A model generated the notes under the pieces. It ran no database searches. It was not told the DNA's origin and worked only from the letters and a program-made list of their open reading frames with translations. A DNA stretch of 64,000 nt from Terriglobales bacterium (GTDB lineage Bacteria > Acidobacteriota > Terriglobia > Terriglobales > Acidobacteriaceae), in contig DATNNO010000085.1 of NCBI GenBank assembly GCA_035601775.1, positions 190,826 through 254,825 of the forward strand. Direction: 5' to 3'. This document shows, in pieces, positions 25,434-37,804 of the stretch. The position numbers and the translations under genes were made by a program. Position 1 is the stretch's first letter. Each line of letters begins with the position of its first letter.

Positions 25434-26624
25434 ATGACGCCACAATCGGCATTCACCGATGTCCCCACCGCCATCGAGGAAATCCGCTCCGGCCGCATGG
25501 TCGTGGTAGTGGATGATGAGGATCGCGAGAACGAAGGCGATCTGACGCTCGCTGCCGAGAAAGTCACTCCTGAACTGATCAATTTCATGGCCAAGTACGG
25601 CCGCGGATTGGTTTGCCTGGCCATGACTGAGGAGCGGCTGGACCATTTGCACATCGGTCCCATGACCGCCGAAAACACGTCGAACTACGGGACCGCGTTT
25701 TGCGAAGCGATTGATGCCCGCGATGGAGTGACCACTGGAATTTCAGCCTACGATCGCGCCCGGACGATAAAGGTTGCAATCGATCCCGCCACTCGCCCTT
25801 CGGATCTGGCGCGTCCCGGACATGTCTTCCCACTGCGGGCCCGCAAGGGTGGCGTGCTGGTGCGCGCCGGCCAAACCGAGGCCTCGGTCGACCTGGCCCG
25901 CATGGCGGGACTGATTCCGGCGGGAGTGATTTGCGAGATCATGCGCGACGACGGAACCATGGCGCGGGTTCCCGACCTCATTGAGTTCTGCAAAACCCAC
26001 AGCATGAAGATGCTGACCGTGGCCGAACTCATTCGCTACCGCATGCAGCACGAGCGCTATGTGCACCGGGTTGGGGAAGCGATTATTGGAACCCGTTACG
26101 GAGAGTTTCGCCTGATTGCCTATGAGAGCGAAGTGGACGGCGGCGAATCTCACGTTGCCTTGGTTAAAGGGGACGCACGCGGCGATATGGGTCCCGATAA
26201 CGACAGCGGCAGCGAGCCGGTGCTGGTCCGCATGCACTCCCATTGCGTGATGGGCGATGTATTCGGTTCTACGGCTTGCGATTGTCACGCGACCATTGAA
26301 GGCTCGATGCAGGCCATTGCGCGCGCAGGCCGGGGCGCTCTGATCTATCTGCATCAAACTTCGAAGGGCTTTTCGGTAGAGAGCATCGGAGAGCGGAGCA
26401 TGCTCACCTTCCACCGCGACAAGCGTCTCCCGTCTCTACCAGAGAGCGAACGCAAAACTCAGCGGGAAATTGGAATTGGAGCGCAAATTCTCTCGGACTT
26501 GAATCTGCGGCGCATTCGCCTTCTGACCAACCATCCCCGAAAAGTTCCGGCGCTCGAAGGATTCAACATCGAGATCGTCGAGCAGGTGCCGGTGCTGCTG
26601 GACAAAGTCAAGACTCATTCCTGA
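25434..26624 (+). CDS. ribBA: Bifunctional 3,4-dihydroxy-2-butanone-4-phosphate synthase / GTP cyclohydrolase II-like protein
   Basis: RibB core [45 protein letters not shown]. The C-terminal GCH II-like domain has [17 protein letters not shown] ... [25 protein letters not shown]. Confidence 0.85.
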
Positions 26625-26632
26625 AGCGGGTG

Positions 26633-26700
26633 CCCCATCCTAACGTCGCGGAAATAGTCCGATCCCAACCTCACTCTGGTTTTGCGACGTTAGGGTGGGG
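26633..26700. repeat. Long hairpin (17-bp stem) immediately after ribBA
   Basis: CCCCATCCTAACGTCGC (26633-26649) pairs with GCGACGTTAGGGTGGGG (26684-26700) with one G-T mismatch and a 34-nt loop. ATTTTGACTTTT follows. It may be a terminator or a REP-like element. Confidence 0.5.
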
Positions 26701-26766
26701 ATTTTGACTTTTAACCGTTGGATGTATTGCCCCCATTTCGCTTGAGTTTTACAGTACCGGATGGCC

Positions 26767-27030
26767 GGTTCAAAGCCCGGTTTAGGCTTGACCGGGGATG
26801 TTCAGCCCTCCCCAACTCTGTCATCCCGACTCAACTCTGTGATCCCGACCGGAACAGATCATCGCAAAGCGATGATCTGTGGAGTGGAGGGACCTTGCGT
26901 TGCGACGTCACCCGGCTGTGAGAAACGGTCGGGATCGAGTCGGAATAGACGACACAAAAACACGAAAGAGCGGCAGGAAGACTCTGTCCGGCTCCGAACT
27001 GCCCCCAACCAAGCCAAAACCGGGCTTGAA
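26767..27030. repeat. Nested-palindrome (MITE/REP-like) element
   Basis: Terminal inverted repeats GGTTCAAAGCCCGGTTTAGGCTTG (26767-) and CCAAGCCAAAACCGGGCTTGAA (-27030). Internal IRs CCGACTC...GATCCCGACCG / CGGTCGGGATCGAGTCGG and GATCATCGC-AAA-GCGATGATC. Confidence 0.5.
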
Positions 27031-27085
27031 TGGGCCACCGGCCGGCGAATCGGCCCAGCCTTTCAAACTAAATCCTTCTTCCCTG

Positions 27086-27676
27086 ATGTACAATTCCCAT
27101 GATTTTGATTGGAAAGGATGGATCATCGCCATGGTCGATCTCGATCCCCACACCATACGCGAAGTGATGAGCGACGCCCGACACCGAAGCAAAGATCCGG
27201 CAGAAGGATTCATGCTTGGGATTTCCATCGTACTTGCGGCCGGGGTCATCATCAGGTTCATCTTTGGGGAAGAGCGGAGTATCAGGTCCATTTGGACTTA
27301 CCTTGAAGGAATCGCTGTAGTTTACGCCCTTTGCTTTCTGATCTTGCTCATCTTTTTTGCGCGCGGCCCCCGACAATCTGCAAAACTAGCTGCGCGGCCG
27401 GCCATTTCTCTCCTATCACTACCGCTACTGCCGCTGGCTCTGGCTTTGGCTCTCTTCCTCTACCTCGTTTTGCTGGCAGGAGGCCTCTTGCTTCTTATTG
27501 TTATAAAGGTCTCGGGGAAAAAGGATTTCGCCTGGGGAACAGGGTCTTTGGCGGACATGTTTACCCTGAAATGGTGGAAGTCTAAGGGCTGGAGACCACC
27601 ATCAAGGATGGAACCGGGCACAGGTCATGGGATGATTAGCAGCCGTTCAGGGGTTAGCCCATCCCCTCAGAAATAA
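27086..27676 (+). CDS. Hypothetical membrane protein (3-4 TM helices)
   Basis: ATG at 27086 is chosen because the track ORF (26879) runs through the palindromic element. TM segments include FMLGISIVLAAGVIIRFIF, IAVVYALCFLILLIFFA and LALALALFLYLVLLAGGLLLLIVI. No family recognised. Confidence 0.4.
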   Translation: MYNSHDFDWKGWIIAMVDLDPHTIREVMSDARHRSKDPAEGFMLGISIVLAAGVIIRFIFGEERSIRSIWTYLEGIAVVYALCFLILLIFFARGPRQSAKLAARPAISLLSLPLLPLALALALFLYLVLLAGGLLLLIVIKVSGKKDFAWGTGSLADMFTLKWWKSKGWRPPSRMEPGTGHGMISSRSGVSPSPQK

Positions 27677-27906
27677 CAAATCAGGGTTGTCCGGGTGGCT
27701 GACCACCTTTGCGGCTTTGCAAAGGCCGGGACCAATGCAGCCTGCGTCCCGATTTTCCACCCGTGACCGCCGACCTCATCGCTCCCACCTTTACAAGTAG
27801 AGGCGCGCCAGCCCCGAGCGCCGCTAGAAAACGACAACACATCTTCGCCTTGTTTTCGCCGCAGTGGAAATGCTAGGCTGCTCAGTAGATCAGGTGGCGG
27901 AGAAAC

Positions 27907-28794
27907 TTGAACTACGAAATCCTTAAGACGGTTTCCCAAATTCTCACGTATATCGGCCTCTCTGTATCGTCGATTCTGACGTGGATAAATCTGCATTTCA
28001 AAACGTCTCAAGACCCCGATGCCGGTCATCGAAAAATTCTGACGCCGGCGGGAAAAGCAGCTAGAATTTTTCTTGTCATCTCATTTGTGCTCACAATATG
28101 TTCGGCAATCGTACAAAACTATGCTGATTCACAATTGAGACGCGCTGCCGAGCAACGCGGAACGAAGGCCATTCAGGCGGCTCTAGAAGAACAACACAAG
28201 CTATACGTAAATGAGTTGGAGCAACAATTTGAGGGGCCGAACGGAGTCATTCCCAAAATAGGTGAACAGGCGAAAGCGTTGAAAGCCGCCGAGTCACTGA
28301 TTGTTACCCAATCATCCGAAACCATCAATCAGTTCACGGGCTCAGAGTCCTACGCTGTCCTGATGTATGCTCCGGGACAAGGTTCTTTGCTATTTGCCCA
28401 TGTAGGAAAATACCCGCTCTACGGAGTCTCTGCTCGAATTGCTGACCTTGACCAAATGCCGACGAACCTTGCGGGCGTAACAGTTCCGGTTGGCGACATG
28501 ATTCGGGAACACGCGAACATCGAATCCATACCAGCAGGCATTCCGACATCAGGTGACCACTTCAATGCTAATGTTTTCTTCACAGCTAGAAATGGTGATT
28601 GGACTGAACTATTGCGGGTAATACGAGTGAATGACGGATGGGCAAGGGCTATTCGGGTGATGGGACGATTTACTTCTCTCAAGAAGGAAAAAGTGATGTG
28701 TGAGACTATCGACCCGAAATTTCCCCAGAACGCCGCGAGCGTACTCAATGAATTCAAACCTGTAGATGGCCCAAAGCCGCCGCGCTGTCTGTGA
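27907..28794 (+). CDS. Hypothetical protein with two N-terminal TM helices, a coiled-coil segment and an unknown C-terminal domain
   Basis: TTG start preceded by GGAG. TM segments VSQILTYIGLSVSSILTWINL and AARIFLVISFVLTICSAIVQNY. The region looks AT-richer by eye. No family recognised. Confidence 0.5.
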   Translation: MNYEILKTVSQILTYIGLSVSSILTWINLHFKTSQDPDAGHRKILTPAGKAARIFLVISFVLTICSAIVQNYADSQLRRAAEQRGTKAIQAALEEQHKLYVNELEQQFEGPNGVIPKIGEQAKALKAAESLIVTQSSETINQFTGSESYAVLMYAPGQGSLLFAHVGKYPLYGVSARIADLDQMPTNLAGVTVPVGDMIREHANIESIPAGIPTSGDHFNANVFFTARNGDWTELLRVIRVNDGWARAIRVMGRFTSLKKEKVMCETIDPKFPQNAASVLNEFKPVDGPKPPRCL

Positions 28795-29045
28795 CACGCG
28801 GCGCGTGGCCTGGCGCCCCAAGTTCGCGTCGGTTTTTGACGCTAACCTGCGTCAGCACATACCGACGTGGCTCCCAAGTTACCGCCCAAAAACCGGGCGG
28901 GAACCTGGGACACCGGGCCCAGCGTCAGTCGCGAAACTGGATCGCCGAGAAGAGATGACGGACTGAGCGAGCGCCAGGCGCGGCGGAGAAACCGGTAGTG
29001 TCAGGTTAAACCGGAGGGGGCCGATCCAGCAGACGCGGTTTTTTC

Positions 29046-30408
29046 ATGGAGCTCCCGACGACTATGTCAGATGATAACGTGCCAACTCCACGAGACAAAT
29101 TTGACAACGAACTGATTGAAATTTCGGGGCAGATCGCAAAGTCTGGTATGGACCGAATCTTCATGCATCTGAGAGACGCCCGCGAGACGCTACGGGTTGC
29201 TGATACAACAATCGGGGCGAAGGCAACAATCATCCTAGCTTCAGCTGCCCTGGAGTCAAACCTTGCCCATCTGACATTGCGCGCTCAGGCATTTGCTGCT
29301 GCGCGGCCACACCTTTACAAGCCTGAGCAAGTTGAATATCTATACGGGAAAAAAGACAACAGTCACGGATCGGGGTGCCCTGAAGGATGTACCGCTTCGA
29401 CAAAGCTTGGAAGAACGCCTGCAGGTTGTTCCAGATCTCTTGGCCCGAGCAGTCAATCGCAGGTATGCACTGCCGAGCAAGTCGCTTGCAATCCGCAAAC
29501 TCCGGCGCACAATAGAGCTGCGCGACAGCATCATCCATCCGCGCTGGGACAAATATCTACCTAGCATTTCCGCAATGGAAGCGGCTCAAGCTGTAGACGC
29601 AGTAGAACTATACCTTGATTCAGTTTGGAAACAACTCCATCCTTACTTGATAGGCTACGTCGCAGTACTTCCCACTATCAGAGGCTTCGACAAGCACGAT
29701 GTGGCAATCGGCCACCGAACAGCGGAGAAGCGAGTGCCCAAGACAAGCTTCACCACGATGACAAAAATCGGCATCGTTGAAGTCTTGGTCCATGAGTGGG
29801 TTGATATGGTGACGATCTGCAGCCTCGCTTTCGAAGGCGGATGTGAGGGTGACTCGGCAGGAAGTCTCTTAACCCGCGTTGCGCTCGTCTTACTCTTTGC
29901 AGGTTTAAACTCACAGCTGTCCATTGTTGCTCAATGGAGACTCCACGACCGATCATCGGCATTTCACGAGGCCGAGCGCAATTTCCTAAACGAAAACGCT
30001 GTGGGACTCGGCATGGATGGGGAGATTGAAATCGAAGAGGATCGTCAAAGCTTTAAGGAACGTATTGTCGCGGTGCCGACTGTACTGGTCAGGCGAGTGG
30101 AGAGTCAAGAGATCAACATCGATCTTGGAACCAAATGGGGTGAGCAACTACAGAAGTCGTATTTATTACGCAATGCTGTCGTGCATGCACCTTCCGACAA
30201 ACCCATCGAGCGCGTAAGTCTGTTGGAACTCCGGGCCGCCGCCACTGCTGTTCGCTCCTACTTCGAAGAATTAGTGCGGAAGGCCCCCGAAACCTTCAAA
30301 GCTCAGAACAAACTGCTGCCAGGCTTCGAAATCCCAGACGAAGCAGACCTCGAGGCGCTGATTAAAGCAGAAAGGATTCGCTGGGACAATCTCAATTCCC
30401 GTTTCTGA
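29046..30408 (+). pseudogene. Putative tandem-HEPN protein (~454 aa) interrupted by a frameshift at an A6 tract
   Basis: ORFs 29046..29564 and 29293..30408 overlap in different frames. The protein-like sequence switches frame at AAAAAA (29350-29355). Two Rx4H motifs are present: LRDSIIH (29521-29538) and LRNAVVH (30169-30186), each at the end of a ~150-aa helical-looking block. Confidence 0.55.
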
Positions 30409-30766
30409 GGCCCAGTGCCCCTGGTTCGCGCACTTTCCTTGTATATTCAGGCTCGTAACCCCCGTTTTTCGGGCGCTAACCTGGGTTTCGCCATATTCCG
30501 AAGGAGACAGCCCCAGATGTCATAGCTAAAGATCGTCTTGCGCCATCAGGCCCCCACAGTTCGCGCACTTTACGTTTCCCACTTCGGGAACCGTCTTCGG
30601 GGCCCGTCCACTTTCCCCTTGATCTCATTCCCTCCACCACGATATTATAGAACAACACAGGTTATCTATAAGATAAAGATAACCACGTTCTTTGACAACC
30701 TGACAAGGGCGCAGCTCTTGGCCATTGTGTTCACCACATACGCCAACTGCTGAGTCCGACCAACCA

Positions 30767-30800
30767 GACGAAGGCGAAAACCTTCGTCCGGCGCTTTTGC
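30767..30800 (+). terminator. Possible intrinsic terminator in non-coding DNA
   Basis: Stem GACGAAGG (30767-30774) / CCTTCGTC (30781-30788), loop CGAAAA, then CGGCGCTTTTGCTGTT. The U-tract is weak and displaced. Confidence 0.3.
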
Positions 30801-31072
30801 TGTTGTCCAGAGCGTAGGCGCAACCGGCCCGACAGACACGCTAACCCCAACGTTTAGAATATTTTGCCTGTAACTACCTTAAGAACCATAGATCTACAAG
30901 GCAAGAAAAAATCCGACCCTTTGTTTTCTAGATTTTGGGCGGAATTGAGTGTTTTTTTTGAGGGAAATTCTGCACCAGAATAGGTGCAGTTCTCGAAATA
31001 AGTCGTCGAAAGAACATGGATGACGCGCAGCGAGAGCACAAGGAGCCGGCAGCCATCCTCATGTCGGCGGCG

Positions 31073-31336
31073 TCAGAAAGGCTTTCGACTTACCACCTGA
31101 CTATCGTTAATGAAGAACTGCGCGGGGCACTGATCGGAGCCGCAGATTACGGGGAGCAGTCCGGCGAGCTGCTTGCGCGTAATCAGGCCCAGAGTGCCGC
31201 ATTCAGGGCAGGAGAGCACGGCCCAGTAGGGGTCATCTTTTTCTCCGACGCGGCCGGCGTTCTCCAGCACGAAGATGGTGCCGGGGAGCATCTGTTCGGG
31301 GATCCATTGGCTTAGGACGTCCAGTTCTCCAACCAT
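31073..31336 (-). CDS. Small zinc-ribbon-like hypothetical protein (87 aa)
   Basis: ATG at 31336 with AAGGAGG SD (31341-31347 on plus strand). Cys pairs CPECG ... CGSDQC. Lies downstream of the MerR gene on the same strand. Confidence 0.55.
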   Translation of the reverse strand: MVGELDVLSQWIPEQMLPGTIFVLENAGRVGEKDDPYWAVLSCPECGTLGLITRKQLAGLLPVICGSDQCPAQFFINDSQVVSRKPF

Positions 31337-31409
31337 CTCGCCTCCTTGTTCGGTCAAACGATGTTCGGCCAAGCAACGTGGAGCCACTATGTGGAACCAA
31401 ACTTCCCGC

Positions 31410-31877
31410 TTATGAAGCCTGTCTTACTTTGCGCAATGAGCGAGACATACCGGTGCTACTCTTCTTGGCGCGTATTTCGGCGCGCACCTGCCGCACGGTG
31501 TCGCTGAGACAGATCGTCAGCATGGGCTGGCGCGCATTTTTCAAGATGTCCACAATCTGCCGGGGCGAAGTTTCGAGATACAGAGTTTTGCCGTCGGTGA
31601 GCAAGTGGTATTCAGAGGCGCCACTGACGGTCTCCGCCAGGCGCTTACCGAACTCCCGCTGCAGGAAGCGCATGACCTTGCGCACGCGCTGCAAGGAGAA
31701 TCCTCGGTGGCGCAACTCGCAGATCACGGCGACCTCCGCGAGGTCTTCCATGGAATACACCCGGCGGCGCCCTTCCCGAGCTGGAACCACGATGCGGCGC
31801 TCGTCCCACCACTGCAACTGCCGGGGCGTGATGCCGGTCAGCGATACCACATCGCGAGATGTGAATGGTTCCCGCAT
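31410..31877 (-). CDS. MerR-family transcriptional regulator
   Basis: N-terminal HTH FTSRDVVSLTGITPRQLQWWDERRIVVP ... RRVYSMEDLAEVAVICELRHRGFSLQRV. Confidence 0.8.
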   Translation of the reverse strand: MREPFTSRDVVSLTGITPRQLQWWDERRIVVPAREGRRRVYSMEDLAEVAVICELRHRGFSLQRVRKVMRFLQREFGKRLAETVSGASEYHLLTDGKTLYLETSPRQIVDILKNARQPMLTICLSDTVRQVRAEIRAKKSSTGMSRSLRKVRQAS

Positions 31878-31891
31878 GCCAAGTCTGAAAA

Positions 31892-31928
31892 TGTTTCAAA
31901 CAATTGCAGAACCAAATGTTTGGAACAT
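31892..31928. promoter_or_regulatory. Two palindromic operator-like sites upstream of the MerR gene
   Basis: TGTTTCAAACA (31892-31902) and ATGTTTGGAACAT (31916-31928), 15-50 nt upstream of the start at 31877. Confidence 0.35.
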
Positions 31929-32207
31929 TCTAGGCGGGAACGGGCAGGTGTCAACTGTGGATTTCGCGGAGGAGGGGTGACTAGACGAGTTCCCTCAAGT
32001 GGAATCTCTTACATTGGGTTCAGAAGTGGAGTGTCAAGCGGAGCCGCCGTGTCGGTTACTTGGACATTTCAGCACCGACAATTCTTCCTAAAGAAGACCT
32101 GATAAAGGACTTACAGCAAATACGAATTCGAAAGCGGGTGGATTGGCAGTTGTTAGTTCCTGGTGCTCAGTTCTCAGATCCAGAGCAATGAGGGGCGTCA
32201 AGAAGTC

Positions 32208-32408
32208 TTAGCCCCCGCCGACGAAGTGGACAATCTCCAAGCGGTCGCCTTCACTCAGGTTGGTTCTCGCCCATTGATCGCGGGCAACGATGCTTCGGTT
32301 CAGCTCGATGGCTACGCGATCTGCTTTCATCTCCAGCTGGTCCACAAGACCGGCGAGAGTGAGCGGAGGATTGAAATCCCGAGCTTCGCCATTGATCTGC
32401 AATTTCAT
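32208..32408 (-). CDS. thiS: Sulfur-carrier protein ThiS
   Basis: 66 aa from ATG 32408: MKLQINGEARDF ... GDRLEIVHFVGGG* with a C-terminal Gly-Gly. Confidence 0.85.
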   Translation of the reverse strand: MKLQINGEARDFNPPLTLAGLVDQLEMKADRVAIELNRSIVARDQWARTNLSEGDRLEIVHFVGGG

Positions 32409-32510
32409 ATCATCTGGATTCTCGCAGCCAGCGCGTGCCGACGGCAAGTGAGCTGTCGAGCTTCGCTCGACCGCGCAGCCGGAGGCGCTGCCCCCACGCG
32501 ATCATCTCGC

Positions 32511-33101
32511 TTATGCTTCTACTTTGCGCAGGTGGAATTTGCGGGTTGCAGTGCGGCCGGAGTAGTTGGCTTGCACGAGCACGGCAGAATCGGGGAGAGA
32601 GGCTTCATCAACATCGATCTTCAGCTCGGCGTCGCCGTCTGAACCGGTGACCACTTGGGTGTAGAACGGGGCAGCGTCGGGACGGGCAAAGCGAACCGTC
32701 AGCCGCGCTCCCTCCACTGCGGCGCCTCCCTCGGTGACGCGCAGGCGCAGGGTCAGATTACGGTCCGAATGCACGGAGCCAGCGTTGAGCCACAGCACAT
32801 CGAGTTCCTTGATAGCAGCCAGCGACTCGGGCGTGAAGCGTTTGTCGAGAACACCGTCCACCTGTCCGTCGCGGATAGAGTCGAGCACCAGACGATGCTG
32901 GTCGCGCAGGATCTGCTCTTTCTGCTGGTCGGTGAAGCCGGACTCGGCGGCTTTGTCCGCGTAGGAGGTGGCACGCTTGCCGATGCAGCGTCCGCGGACG
33001 AAGACTTGAGTCTGCAGGAGCAACTCGTTCTCCCGCGCTTCGCTTTGCACGTGGTAAACCGTGCCGTCGTGCTTCACGTCGGTATTGAAGCCAAAGATCA
33101 T
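32511..33101 (-). CDS. Hypothetical protein (196 aa)
   Basis: Clean ORF with an ATG start: MIFGFNTDVKHDGTVYHVQSEARENELLLQTQVFVRGRCIG... No family recognised. Confidence 0.6.
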   Translation of the reverse strand: MIFGFNTDVKHDGTVYHVQSEARENELLLQTQVFVRGRCIGKRATSYADKAAESGFTDQQKEQILRDQHRLVLDSIRDGQVDGVLDKRFTPESLAAIKELDVLWLNAGSVHSDRNLTLRLRVTEGGAAVEGARLTVRFARPDAAPFYTQVVTGSDGDAELKIDVDEASLPDSAVLVQANYSGRTATRKFHLRKVEA

Positions 33102-33106
33102 CTGAC

Positions 33107-33147
33107 CCTACTTAACCAATCCTACTTAACCAATCCTACTTAACCAT
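33107..33147. repeat. 14-bp tandem repeat x3 (CCTACTTAACCAAT)
   Basis: Units at 33107-33120 and 33121-33134, with a partial unit at 33135-33147. It begins 5 nt upstream of the minus-strand start codon at 33101. Confidence 0.8.
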
Positions 33148-35381: not shown

Positions 35382-35383
35382 AA

Positions 35384-35423
35384 ATTGAGTAATTTGGGAA
35401 TTGGGTAATCGGGTAATTGAATC
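35384..35423. repeat. Array of ~5 degenerate octamers (ATTGGGTA type, i.e. GGTAATT repeats)
   Basis: ATTGAGTA ATTTGGGA ATTGGGTA ATCGGGTA ATTGAATC, starting 3 nt after the nuoD stop. Confidence 0.8.
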
Positions 35424-35796: not shown

Positions 35797-35809
35797 CGTT
35801 AAATTTCAC

Positions 35810-35841
35810 AATTACCAGATTACTCAATTACTCAATGGCAA
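35810..35841. repeat. Inverted-orientation octamer array (AATTACTC type)
   Basis: AATTACCA GATTACTC AATTACTC AATGGCAA, ending 1 nt before the nuoE ATG. It is the reverse complement of the 35384-35423 array units. Confidence 0.8.
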
Positions 35842-36328: not shown

Positions 36329-36386
36329 TTTTGCAATTGCCGGAAGAATTACCCGATTACTCAATTACTCAATTACTCAATTACAA
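36311..36386. repeat. Cargo-less inverted octamer element at the nuoE-nuoF junction
   Basis: AATCGAGCAATTGGGTAATT (36311-36330, including the nuoE stop) is 17/20 complementary to AATTACCCGATTACTCAATT (36347-36366). The array continues AATTACTC AATTACTC AATTACAA up to the nuoF ATG. A central GCAATTGC palindrome is present. Confidence 0.75.
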
Positions 36387-37713: not shown

Positions 37714-37723
37714 GGAGCGAATT

Positions 37724-37804
37724 GCGTAATTTGGTAATTGTGTAATTTCGTAATTTAAAGGCAAGGTTCTTCAATAGCCCGATCACCCGATTACTCAATT
37801 ACGA
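37724..37804. repeat. Cargo-less inverted octamer element at the nuoF-nuoG junction
   Basis: Forward units GCGTAATT TGGTAATT GTGTAATT TCGTAATT (37724-37755), a 25-nt spacer, then reverse units GATCACCC GATTACTC AATTACGA (37781-37804). It ends 9 nt before the nuoG ATG. Confidence 0.75.

What the first reader, a model, noticed from the sequence alone, without database searches (positions are those of the whole stretch)
29046..30408. Single polypeptide with two HEPN-like Rx4H domains, split by a frameshift in an A6 homopolymer
Seen: ORFs 29046-29564 and 29293-30408 overlap in different frames. Protein-like sequence (...PHLYKPEQVEYLYGKK | TTVTDRGALKDVPLRQSLEERL...) switches frame at AAAAAA (29350-29355). 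Loss of one A would give one ~454-aa ORF. It contains two helical blocks, each ending in a HEPN-type motif: ELRDSIIHP (29521-29538) and LLRNAVVHAP (30169-30186, with the typical polar residue after Arg). Established: HEPN RNases use Rx4-6H motifs from two domains to build one active site. Most are homodimers, while Cas13 carries two HEPN domains in one chain. Many abortive-infection and toxin systems are HEPN based. Inference: this is a compact intramolecular double-HEPN RNase with no CRISPR array nearby, sitting in an accessory island. The homopolymer break could be a sequencing error, inactivation of a toxic gene, or a phase-variable or frameshift-controlled switch.
Basis: partly seen in the sequence, partly recalled or inferred. 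Interest (0 to 1): 0.7.

Follow-up and report, generated by a model that had tools for sequence, protein, structure and literature searches.

The report
Frameshifted gene for a double-HEPN-like protein
The two overlapping reading frames are one broken gene from an unannotated family, mostly in soil Acidobacteriota, whose roughly 450-residue proteins carry two related HEPN-like, probable RNA-cutting domains and sit among phage-defence and mobile-element genes; this copy is disrupted by one extra base.

Summary
ORFs 29046-29564 and 29293-30408 are two halves of one gene. Removing one A from the A6 run (29349-29354) gives a 453-aa protein. This protein matches 89 homologue clusters, most of them single ORFs of 420-470 aa, and the closest (95% identical) has A5 at the site.

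The two halves of the protein are homologous to each other (hhalign 98.2%, E 4e-14). Both Rx4H motifs are invariant: RDxxxH in 89/89 homologues and R[N/D/S]xxxH in 81/81.

In a confident AlphaFold model each motif sits at the end of the third core helix. There is a conserved acidic residue in helix 2 and an insert between helices 2 and 3, as described for HEPN domains.

Database support for HEPN is weak but consistent. The real proteins have no Pfam, PADLOC, NCBIfam or PHROGs hit, and Foldseek found nothing significant. Only single-domain remote relatives and family consensus sequences reach HEPN_RiboL-PSP, below threshold.

No neighbouring gene is conserved. The surroundings are prophage, conjugative-element and defence-island DNA, and no CRISPR array was found.

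The frameshifted allele is identical in at least four assembly records, and dN/dS against the intact relative is 0.10. It is most likely a recent real inactivation, not programmed recoding.

The parts
29046..30408 (+). Whole disrupted gene (453 codons after removing one A). It belongs to an unannotated family of about 420-470-aa proteins. The true start may be the second ATG at 29064, because most homologues begin MS.D...
   Evidence: Part of it is annotated in NCBI as hypothetical protein VN948_12425 (HXM22057.1, 371 aa), Terriglobales bacterium MAG.
29349..29354 (+). A6 run where the reading frame changes. The closest intact allele has A5 here. The extra base lies somewhere in 29344-29354.
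29148..29637 (+). N-terminal HEPN-like domain (residues about 35-197 of the repaired protein). It consists of helix 1, helix 2, an insert (short helix, beta-hairpin, helix), helix 3 and helix 4. The frameshift interrupts it inside the insert, after residue 103.
   Evidence: AlphaFold model with pLDDT 88.6 and pTM 0.87. Matches the C-terminal half by hhalign and the single-domain relatives at 99.6%, E 7e-25.
29166..29183 (+). HLRDAR motif in helix 1 of the N-terminal domain. H41, R43, D44 and R46 are invariant; their role is unknown.
   Evidence: 82/82 sequences that cover it.
29253..29261 (+). E70-S-N72 in helix 2 of the N-terminal domain. E70 is the conserved acidic residue expected in helix 2 of a HEPN domain.
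   Evidence: E 83/84, N 84/84. Criterion from PMC3710099.
29521..29538 (+). First Rx4H motif, R159-D-S-I-I-H164, at the end of helix 147-163.
   Evidence: R, D and H are each 89/89 in homologues. Helix position.
29773..30282 (+). C-terminal HEPN-like domain (residues about 243-412), with the same helix order and the same beta-hairpin insert.
   Evidence: The family consensus of this domain has PF18735 HEPN_RiboL-PSP as its top Pfam hit (E 3.9e-4, below the cut-off).
30169..30186 (+). Second Rx4H motif, R375-N-A-V-V-H380, at the end of helix 363-379.
   Evidence: R and H are 81/81 among sequences that cover it. The residue after R is N in 62, D in 11 and S in 8.
28804..30988 (+). Segment shared at 92.5% nucleotide identity with the locus of the intact allele (L001:7762-9935). 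It comprises the gene plus about 240 bp upstream and about 580 bp downstream.
26627..30988 (.). Mosaic stretch of lower GC (51-54% against 57-60% in the flanks) between ribBA and a zinc-ribbon/MerR gene pair. It holds two unannotated ORFs (26879-27676 and 27907-28794) and the broken gene.

Best explanation
The locus is a single gene of an uncharacterised protein family found mainly in Acidobacteriota. The family sits on prophages, on a conjugative element, in defence islands, or as small isolated inserts.

The protein is built from two homologous HEPN-like four-helix domains in one chain. Each keeps an invariant R-[D/N]-x3-H motif at the end of its third core helix.

The most likely mechanism is inferred, not shown. 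The two domains pack as a pseudo-dimer, so the two Rx4H motifs form one composite, metal-independent RNase site, as HEPN homodimers and Cas13 do. The protein would then act alone as a toxic, abortive-infection-type RNase, held inactive until an unknown trigger.

In this Terriglobales genome the gene carries one extra base at or next to an A run (A6 instead of A5). This separates helices 1-2 of the first domain from the rest, including both Rx4H motifs. The copy is therefore most likely a recently inactivated pseudogene.
For: One gene:
- The repaired 453-aa protein matches 89 homologue clusters. 75 of them are at least 400 aa and cover 88-100% of it. P0001 is 95% identical over 100%, and the junction is continuous in all of them.

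Internal duplication:
- hhalign of the N-terminal half against the C-terminal half gives 98.2%, E 4e-14, over 153 columns, with the motifs aligned.

HEPN character:
- The motifs are invariant.
- In the AlphaFold model (pLDDT 88.6, pTM 0.87) R159/H164 and R375/H380 lie at the end of helices 147-163 and 363-379. Acidic E70 and D288 lie in the preceding long helix. There are inserts between helices 2 and 3. This is the layout described for HEPN in PMC3710099.
- A profile search of 1.8 billion proteins found 177 relatives, many of them single-domain proteins of 180-290 aa. These match both halves: hhalign 99.6%, E 7e-25 and 99.3%, E 3e-20.
- Among 75 of these relatives, the only recurring database families are HEPN models: PF18735 in 5 (best E 2.3e-6), PF18737 in 2, and PADLOC RTasHEPN in 3.
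- The consensus of the relatives hits PF18735 over positions 6-190 of 191 (E 4.6e-5). The consensus of our C-terminal domain also has PF18735 as its top hit (E 3.9e-4).

Defence or mobile context, with no conserved partner gene:
- Pycsar genes directly upstream (L019/L020).
- A T4SS conjugative element next to HEPN_Toprim_N and YhcG (L021).
- The end of a prophage, near GmrSD_N plus HEPN_RiboL-PSP (L022-L024).
- HigB, SAVED-HNH and a methylase (L028).
- RES and SIR2+HerA (L030).
- Cas1, Ymh and patatin (L009).

The break is real and recent:
- The A6 allele is 100% identical in the NCBI contig, two ENA assemblies and a Logan contig. Further JGI records carry the same truncated proteins.
- dN/dS against the intact L001 allele is 0.10, with dS 0.21.
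Against: - The real proteins hit no Pfam, PADLOC, NCBIfam or PHROGs model, even at E up to 10 for Pfam and PADLOC.
- Foldseek of the full model and of the C-terminal domain found no significant match against PDB or BFVD. A HepT toxin (7ae2_A) appears only at rank 27, with E 2.3 and TM 0.43.
- Profile searches of PDB sequences found nothing.
- All Pfam HEPN matches are below the gathering score. A genuine PF18735 protein (L022:4199-4954) aligns to the family profiles only weakly, at the motif.
- The proximity of the two motifs in three dimensions could not be measured.
- No RNase, toxicity or phage data exist.
- The identical assemblies may come from the same reads, so a systematic read error is not excluded.
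Confidence: 0.7

Rival explanations
1. The frameshift is a sequencing or assembly error and the organism carries an intact gene.
For: The break is a single extra base at a homopolymer. The coding sequence otherwise looks fully selected (dN/dS 0.10). Long-read assemblies in the same data sources do show broken genes: RND transporter and cyclase genes are split in L019 but intact in L020 for the same locus.
Against: The A6 allele is identical in at least four separately built records. One has a k141_ contig name, which is typical of a short-read assembler (own knowledge). A run of six is short for a homopolymer error. The site also differs from the intact allele by two substitutions (TAC against TCA), so it is not a bare run-length difference.
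Confidence: 0.2
2. The A run is a programmed +1 frameshift, transcriptional slippage or phase-variation switch that controls a toxic gene.
For: Restoring the frame needs a +1 shift, and Lys-tRNA could in principle slip from AAA to AAG on AAAAAAG (inference). Toxic genes are sometimes controlled in this way.
Against: The run is not conserved. The closest allele has A5 in frame, and more distant homologues have unrelated codons (GGGAGGAAG, GGCGTAAGC and others) and plain single ORFs. No stimulatory element was seen. Six A's is short for slippage or phase variation (own knowledge). All recovered copies of this strain carry the same A6.
Confidence: 0.04
3. The domains are not HEPN RNases. They are another helical fold that happens to carry a conserved R-x4-H, with a non-nuclease role such as binding or regulation.
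For: No significant structural match to any solved HEPN structure. No above-threshold Pfam match. Helical bundles are easy to over-interpret.
Against: Five independent positional and sequence criteria of HEPN are met in both domains (PMC3710099). The only database families that recur among remote relatives are HEPN models. The gene neighbourhoods are those typical of HEPN toxins.
Confidence: 0.15
4. It is a CRISPR-linked, RNA-guided effector of the Cas13 kind, with two HEPN domains in one chain.
For: It has the two-HEPN-in-one-chain architecture at about 450 aa, close to the size of compact Cas13an (PMC12165695). A genuine Cas1 gene lies 1.3-3.7 kb upstream in L009 and L013, and a Cas1 fragment about 2 kb upstream in L011.
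Against: No repeat array was found in the whole window or within ±7 kb in the five loci L009-L013 scanned for repeats. Cas1 is absent from most loci. There is no sequence or Foldseek match to the many Cas13 structures in PDB. The motif order is canonical, unlike the rearranged HEPN domains described for Cas13an.
Confidence: 0.03

Closest known systems
HEPN_RiboL-PSP (Pfam PF18735), a family of the HEPN superfamily
   Same: It is the top and only recurring Pfam match for remote single-domain relatives and for the family consensus sequences. The helix order is the same and the R[N/D]xxxH motif sits near the C-terminal end of the domain. It occurs in the same kind of defence islands; one copy lies 5 kb from a family member in L022.
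   Different: All matches are below the gathering score of 28.4 bits, and the real proteins do not match at all. The family here has two domains in one chain and a beta-hairpin insert in each. A genuine PF18735 protein aligns only weakly, at the motif.
Cas13 (type VI CRISPR effectors), especially the compact Cas13an
   Same: Two HEPN domains in one polypeptide, which in Cas13 pair within the molecule to form one RNase site. Cas13an is similarly small and is proposed to derive from the fusion of two related defence HEPN genes (PMC12165695).
   Different: No CRISPR array, no detectable sequence or fold similarity to Cas13, canonical rather than rearranged motif order, and a different nearest HEPN clade (RiboL-PSP-like rather than AbiD/F-like).
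HepT/MNT (HEPN-MNT) toxin-antitoxin RNases
   Same: A small HEPN toxin with an Rx4H motif that is active as a dimer with a composite site. The only solved HEPN structure in the Foldseek lists is a HepT (7ae2_A, TM 0.43, not significant).
   Different: HepT is a single domain that forms homodimers and is neutralised by an adjacent MNT gene. Here there are two fused domains and no conserved neighbour (and the context calls).
Csx1 of the MJ1666 type
   Same: Listed in PMC3710099 as carrying a dyad of HEPN domains in one protein.
   Different: Csx1 is fused to a Rossmann-like sensor domain and is CRISPR-associated. No such domain or association is present here.

Membership tests
HEPN superfamily (criteria of Anantharaman et al. 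2013, PMC3710099) | Conserved Rx4-6H motif | tested here: met
   R159/H164 in 89/89 homologues; R375/H380 in 81/81 that cover it.
HEPN superfamily (criteria of Anantharaman et al. 2013, PMC3710099) | Polar residue (N, D or H) immediately after the Arg | tested here: met
   D160 in 89/89. Position 376 is N in 62, D in 11 and S in 8.
HEPN superfamily (criteria of Anantharaman et al. 2013, PMC3710099) | [quoted passage not shown] | tested here: met
   Secondary structure of the predicted model: helices 147-163 and 363-379 end at the motifs, and a short helix, beta-hairpin and helix are inserted after helix 2 in both halves. This rests on a predicted structure, not a solved one.
HEPN superfamily (criteria of Anantharaman et al. 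2013, PMC3710099) | Conserved acidic residue in helix 2 | tested here: met
   E70 in 83/84. Position 288 is D in 39/45 and N in the window's clade. The Ex3[KR] form of the motif is not present.
HEPN superfamily (criteria of Anantharaman et al. 2013, PMC3710099) | Significant profile or fold similarity to a recognised HEPN family or structure | tested here: inconclusive
   Only sub-threshold, indirect Pfam and PADLOC HEPN matches. Foldseek and PDB profile searches were negative.
HEPN superfamily (criteria of Anantharaman et al. 2013, PMC3710099) | Metal-independent endoribonuclease activity that depends on the R and H residues | not testable with these tools
   Needs biochemistry.
Pfam PF18735 HEPN_RiboL-PSP | Score at or above the gathering threshold (28.4 bits) | tested here: not met
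   No hit for the repaired protein at E up to 10. Consensus of the C-terminal domain scores 20.8 bits and consensus of the remote relatives 23.8 bits.
Cas13 / type VI CRISPR effector | Adjacent CRISPR array | tested here: not met
   No arrays in the window or in loci L009-L013. No Rfam match in 26000-33000.
Cas13 / type VI CRISPR effector | Two HEPN domains in one chain | tested here: met
   subject to the HEPN assignment.
Cas13 / type VI CRISPR effector | Sequence or fold similarity to known Cas13 proteins | tested here: not met
   No Cas13 among PDB sequence, profile or Foldseek hits.
HEPN-MNT type II toxin-antitoxin | Conserved adjacent antitoxin gene (MNT) | tested here: not met
   No neighbour is shared across about 15 contexts.
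Programmed-frameshift or phase-variable gene | Slippery run and split reading frame conserved among homologues | tested here: not met
   Homologues are single ORFs. The site is A5 in L001 and has unrelated codons in the others.

The most novel reading that the evidence does not exclude
The family could be an independent, non-CRISPR case of the Cas13-like design: two HEPN domains fused into one self-contained RNase of about 450 aa. This is the kind of compact fusion proposed as the starting point of Cas13 evolution. In some genomes it may work together with the nearby solo Cas1, or with an as yet unseen RNA, rather than as a plain toxin.
Probability: 0.05. Interest if true: 0.85.

Novelty: new variant of a known kind. 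Interest (0 to 1): 0.45.

Why it matters
The window copy itself is a dead gene. It does, however, point to an unannotated protein family: 89 clusters at 90% identity, with no Pfam, NCBIfam, PADLOC or PHROGs model.

The family has intact members on prophages, on a conjugative element and in defence islands of soil Acidobacteriota. It joins two HEPN-like domains in one small chain with no partner gene.

If it is active, it would be a new single-gene candidate anti-phage RNase. It would also be a natural, compact example of an intramolecular HEPN pair outside CRISPR, which bears on how Cas13-type effectors arose and on the design of small RNases.

A larger family of single-domain relatives (177 hits at E up to 1e-3) is equally unannotated.

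Tried and rejected
**Searches that found nothing**
- Pfam, PADLOC, NCBIfam and PHROGs scans of the repaired protein and of intact homologues.
- PDB sequence and profile searches with the protein, the C-terminal domain alignment and the remote-relative alignment.
- Foldseek of the full-length model against PDB, and of the C-terminal domain model against PDB and BFVD. These returned only non-significant helical noise.
- A second word-indexed homologue search with the remote-relative alignment, intended to harvest Pfam labels. It returned only 2 hits and was wasted.
- An Rfam scan of 26000-33000.

**Weak or uninformative tests**
- Direct comparison of a genuine PF18735 protein (L022:4199-4954) with the domain profiles matched only at the motif.
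- A screen of the window for other overlapping same-strand frames, meant to gauge the assembly error rate, was too noisy in this GC-rich DNA to use.
- A search for terminal repeats at the ends of the 26627-30988 segment found none above chance.

**Readings rejected**
- Two normally separate genes: rejected because the homologues are single ORFs.
- A conserved operon partner: rejected by the neighbour comparison.

Full report
**1. Observation**

The window holds ORF 29046-29564 (172 aa) and ORF 29293-30408 (371 aa) on the + strand. They are one frame apart and overlap. Removing one A gives a 453-codon frame.

**2. One gene, normally intact**

- A search with the repaired protein found 89 clusters. 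75 are at least 400 aa, and most cover 88-100% of the query.
- P0001 is 453 aa and 95% identical over 100% of the length.
- The 371-aa fragment is the NCBI entry HXM22057.1 (locus tag VN948_12425), from a Terriglobales bacterium MAG.
- The junction region is continuous in every intact homologue.
- At the DNA level the closest intact allele reads CTATCAGGGAAAAAGACA, against the window's CTATACGGGAAAAAAGACA. The net difference is one extra base within 29344-29354. The simplest account is A5 to A6 plus a TCA-to-TAC change.

**3. Is the break real?**

- The frameshifted 172-aa product and the downstream fragments occur in several public records.
- Three of these records were fetched: ENA ERZ27256019 k141_1066813, ENA ERZ28654708 scaffold_12 and Logan ERR1700674. 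They are 100% identical to the window over 2.0-6.5 kb and carry the same A6.
- They may share reads, so this shows reproducibility, not independence.
- dN/dS between the repaired gene and the intact L001 allele is 0.10 with dS 0.21, and is similar on both sides of the break. The gene was therefore under purifying selection until recently.
- The run is not conserved in other homologues, which argues against programmed recoding.
- Other decayed copies exist. L014 and L015 keep only residues 11-140 and 18-84. P0023 and P0035 have internal deletions.

**4. Architecture**

- An alignment of 45 sequences at 38-95% identity gives 39 invariant columns. These include H41-x-R43-D44-x-R46, E70, N72, R159-D160, H164, R375 and H380.
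- Across all 89 homologues, R159/D160/H164 are 89/89 and R375/H380 are 81/81.
- The repaired protein has four Rx4H strings where 0.9 are expected by chance. The evidence is the conservation, not the mere presence of the strings.
- AlphaFold2 with this alignment gives pLDDT 88.6 and pTM 0.87. The model shows two repeated modules. Each has a helix, a long helix, an insert (short helix, beta-hairpin, helix), a helix ending at the Rx4H motif, and a final long helix.
- hhalign of the N-terminal half against the C-terminal half gives 98.2% probability, E 4e-14, over 153 columns. The motifs align with each other, and so do the helix-2 acidic positions, LESNL with LDAQL.

**5. Is it HEPN?**

Anantharaman et al. 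2013 (PMC3710099) describe the HEPN domain as follows:
- a four-helix core of 100-120 residues;
- frequent inserts between helices 2 and 3;
- a polar N, D or H residue after the Arg;
- a conserved acidic residue in helix 2.

Both halves meet each of these points.

Direct database support is weak. The real proteins have no Pfam, PADLOC, NCBIfam or PHROGs hit. PDB sequence and profile searches found nothing. Foldseek gave only noise, with the HepT toxin 7ae2_A at rank 27 (E 2.3, TM 0.43) for the C-terminal domain model.

Indirect support comes from remote relatives:
- A full HMMER profile search of 1.84 billion representatives found 177 proteins at E up to 1e-3. Many are single-domain proteins of 180-290 aa with the consensus ...RDRLTHPK....
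- These relatives match both of our halves over the same region. hhalign gives 99.6%, E 7e-25 and 99.3%, E 3e-20.
- Of 75 relatives, 5 hit Pfam HEPN_RiboL-PSP (best E 2.3e-6), 2 hit HEPN_MAE_28990, and 3 hit PADLOC RTasHEPN. No other family recurs.
- The consensus of the relatives hits PF18735 across positions 6-190 of 191 (E 4.6e-5, 23.8 bits against a cut-off of 28.4). The consensus of our C-terminal domain also has PF18735 as its top hit (E 3.9e-4). The N-terminal consensus hits nothing.
- In P0161 the PF18735 match (residues 105-199) lies within the region matched by our profile.
- A genuine PF18735 protein from L022 aligns only weakly, at the motif.

I conclude that this is a divergent new family of the HEPN superfamily, with about 0.8 confidence. 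It is not a member of PF18735.

**6. Context**

No neighbouring gene is conserved. The contexts are:

| Locus | Neighbouring genes |
|---|---|
| window | lower-GC 4.4-kb stretch between ribBA and MerR/ThiS |
| L001 | hypothetical genes between a Cu-oxidase and an M28 peptidase |
| L002/L003 | MqsA-type HTH gene |
| L005 | run of small unannotated ORFs |
| L019/L020 | Pycsar genes (PycTM plus cyclase) directly upstream; PolB-like gene and IS110 downstream |
| L021 | cargo of a T4SS conjugative element, next to HEPN_Toprim_N and YhcG |
| L022-L024 | end of a prophage, near GmrSD_N plus HEPN_RiboL-PSP |
| L025 | isolated insert among housekeeping genes |
| L028 | HigB, SAVED-HNH, methylase plus HNH |
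| L030 | RES, TrfA, SIR2+HerA, methylase |
| L009 | Cas1, Ymh, patatin |
| L013 | Cas1, HNH, serine recombinases |
| L011 | integrase and a Cas1 fragment |
| L010 | P63C-domain protein |

Eight of the nine loci found in reference genomes are from Acidobacteriota MAGs, and one is from a Steroidobacteraceae MAG. No CRISPR-like arrays occur in the window or in L009-L013.

**7. Mechanism**

What is shown:
- a single chain with two homologous domains, invariant motifs and a confident compact fold;
- a mobile or defence neighbourhood with no partner gene.

What is inferred:
- The two domains form a pseudo-dimer whose Rx4H motifs build one RNase site. HEPN homodimers do this, and so does Cas13 within one molecule (PMC12165695).
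- The protein is a stand-alone toxic RNase of the abortive-infection type.
- Candidates for regulation or substrate contact are the invariant HLRDAR helix and the two beta-hairpin inserts.

In the window allele, translation from the start gives helices 1-2 of the first domain plus 69 out-of-frame residues. Any internal restart would lack part or all of the first domain. The copy should therefore be inactive.

**8. Comparison and novelty**

The closest known family is HEPN_RiboL-PSP, matched only below threshold. The closest known architecture is Cas13, especially Cas13an, and the Csx1 dyad. Neither a CRISPR array nor Cas13 similarity is present.

I rate this a new variant of a known kind: an unannotated HEPN family with a tandem-domain, partner-less architecture. 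The frameshift itself is ordinary gene decay.

**9. Verdict**

- Interest is 0.45.
- Confidence by claim:
  - one gene with a frameshift: about 0.97;
  - internal duplication: about 0.95;
  - HEPN superfamily: about 0.8;
  - defence RNase with a composite site: about 0.55-0.6;
  - real mutation rather than error: about 0.75.

Noticed in passing
L009:1721-3256, L013:4176-5738 (also L013:14572-15213 on the - strand), L011:4614-4946: A long (511-520 aa) genuine Cas1 homologue lies upstream of the double-HEPN gene on the same strand in L009 and L013: 3.7 kb and 1.3 kb away (PF01867 E 1e-39 and 6e-41; TIGR00287 105.8 bits for the L009 copy, above the cut-off). A Cas1 fragment lies about 2 kb upstream in L011. 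No repeat array was found within ±7 kb. Cas1 is absent from the other roughly 12 contexts, so this may only reflect clustering in defence islands.
   Followed up: partly
window 28829-28852 (+), 28873-28895 (-), 30463-30485 (+): A motif of about 23 nt (CGGTTTTTG.GCG.TAAC.TG.G) occurs as an inverted pair upstream of the gene and once downstream. The pattern search found two copies in the 64-kb window where none is expected by chance. The third copy, at about 28829-28852, was seen only by pairwise alignment. Its function is unknown.
   Followed up: partly
window 26627-26711 (hairpin arms 26633-26649 and 26684-26700); L001:5900-5984: A 17-bp-stem hairpin directly after ribBA is 95% identical to a segment in L001, where it lies next to a different upstream gene. 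Together with 27703-27807 and 28804-30988, it marks a mosaic segment shared between two otherwise unrelated genomic contexts. The segment has different cargo genes in between and no recognisable recombinase or terminal repeats.
   Followed up: partly
L014:7001-7390, L015:7001-7201; proteins P0023, P0035, P0018, P0048: Several other copies of the family look decayed. Two are N-terminal remnants only (residues 11-140 and 18-84). Two have internal deletions that remove most of the second domain. Two have truncated or frameshifted ends. Some of these may be assembly artefacts.
   Followed up: partly
protein P0145 (338 aa): A single-domain remote relative of the HEPN-like domain (residues about 50-181) is fused to a circularly permuted YpsA SLOG domain (PF12694, E 4.8e-50).
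   Followed up: no
L019 compared with L020 (same locus in two ENA assemblies): Several genes are split into pieces in L019 but intact in L020: OEP, ACR_tran (455+455 aa against 1047 aa) and the Pycsar cyclase (140+37 aa against 302 aa). Some assemblies in these collections therefore carry frequent frameshift errors.
   Followed up: no
window 35383-35420, 35809-35836, 36347-36384, 37720-37756: Short tandem arrays of an 8-nt unit (AATTACTC, AATTTCGT or AATTGAGT types; some are reported with a 16-nt period) recur at four sites near ORFs between about 35.4 and 37.8 kb.
   Followed up: no
window 33107-33146: A perfect 14-nt tandem repeat (CCTACTTAACCAAT, 2.9 copies) lies just beyond the 5' end of the minus-strand ORF 32511-33101.
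   Followed up: no
window 31073-31387 (-) and 31410-31877 (-): A 104-aa ORF with a borderline MJ0042-type zinc-ribbon match (TIGR02098, 20.8 bits against a cut-off of 20.9) lies next to a MerR-family regulator, at the right edge of the lower-GC stretch.
   Followed up: no
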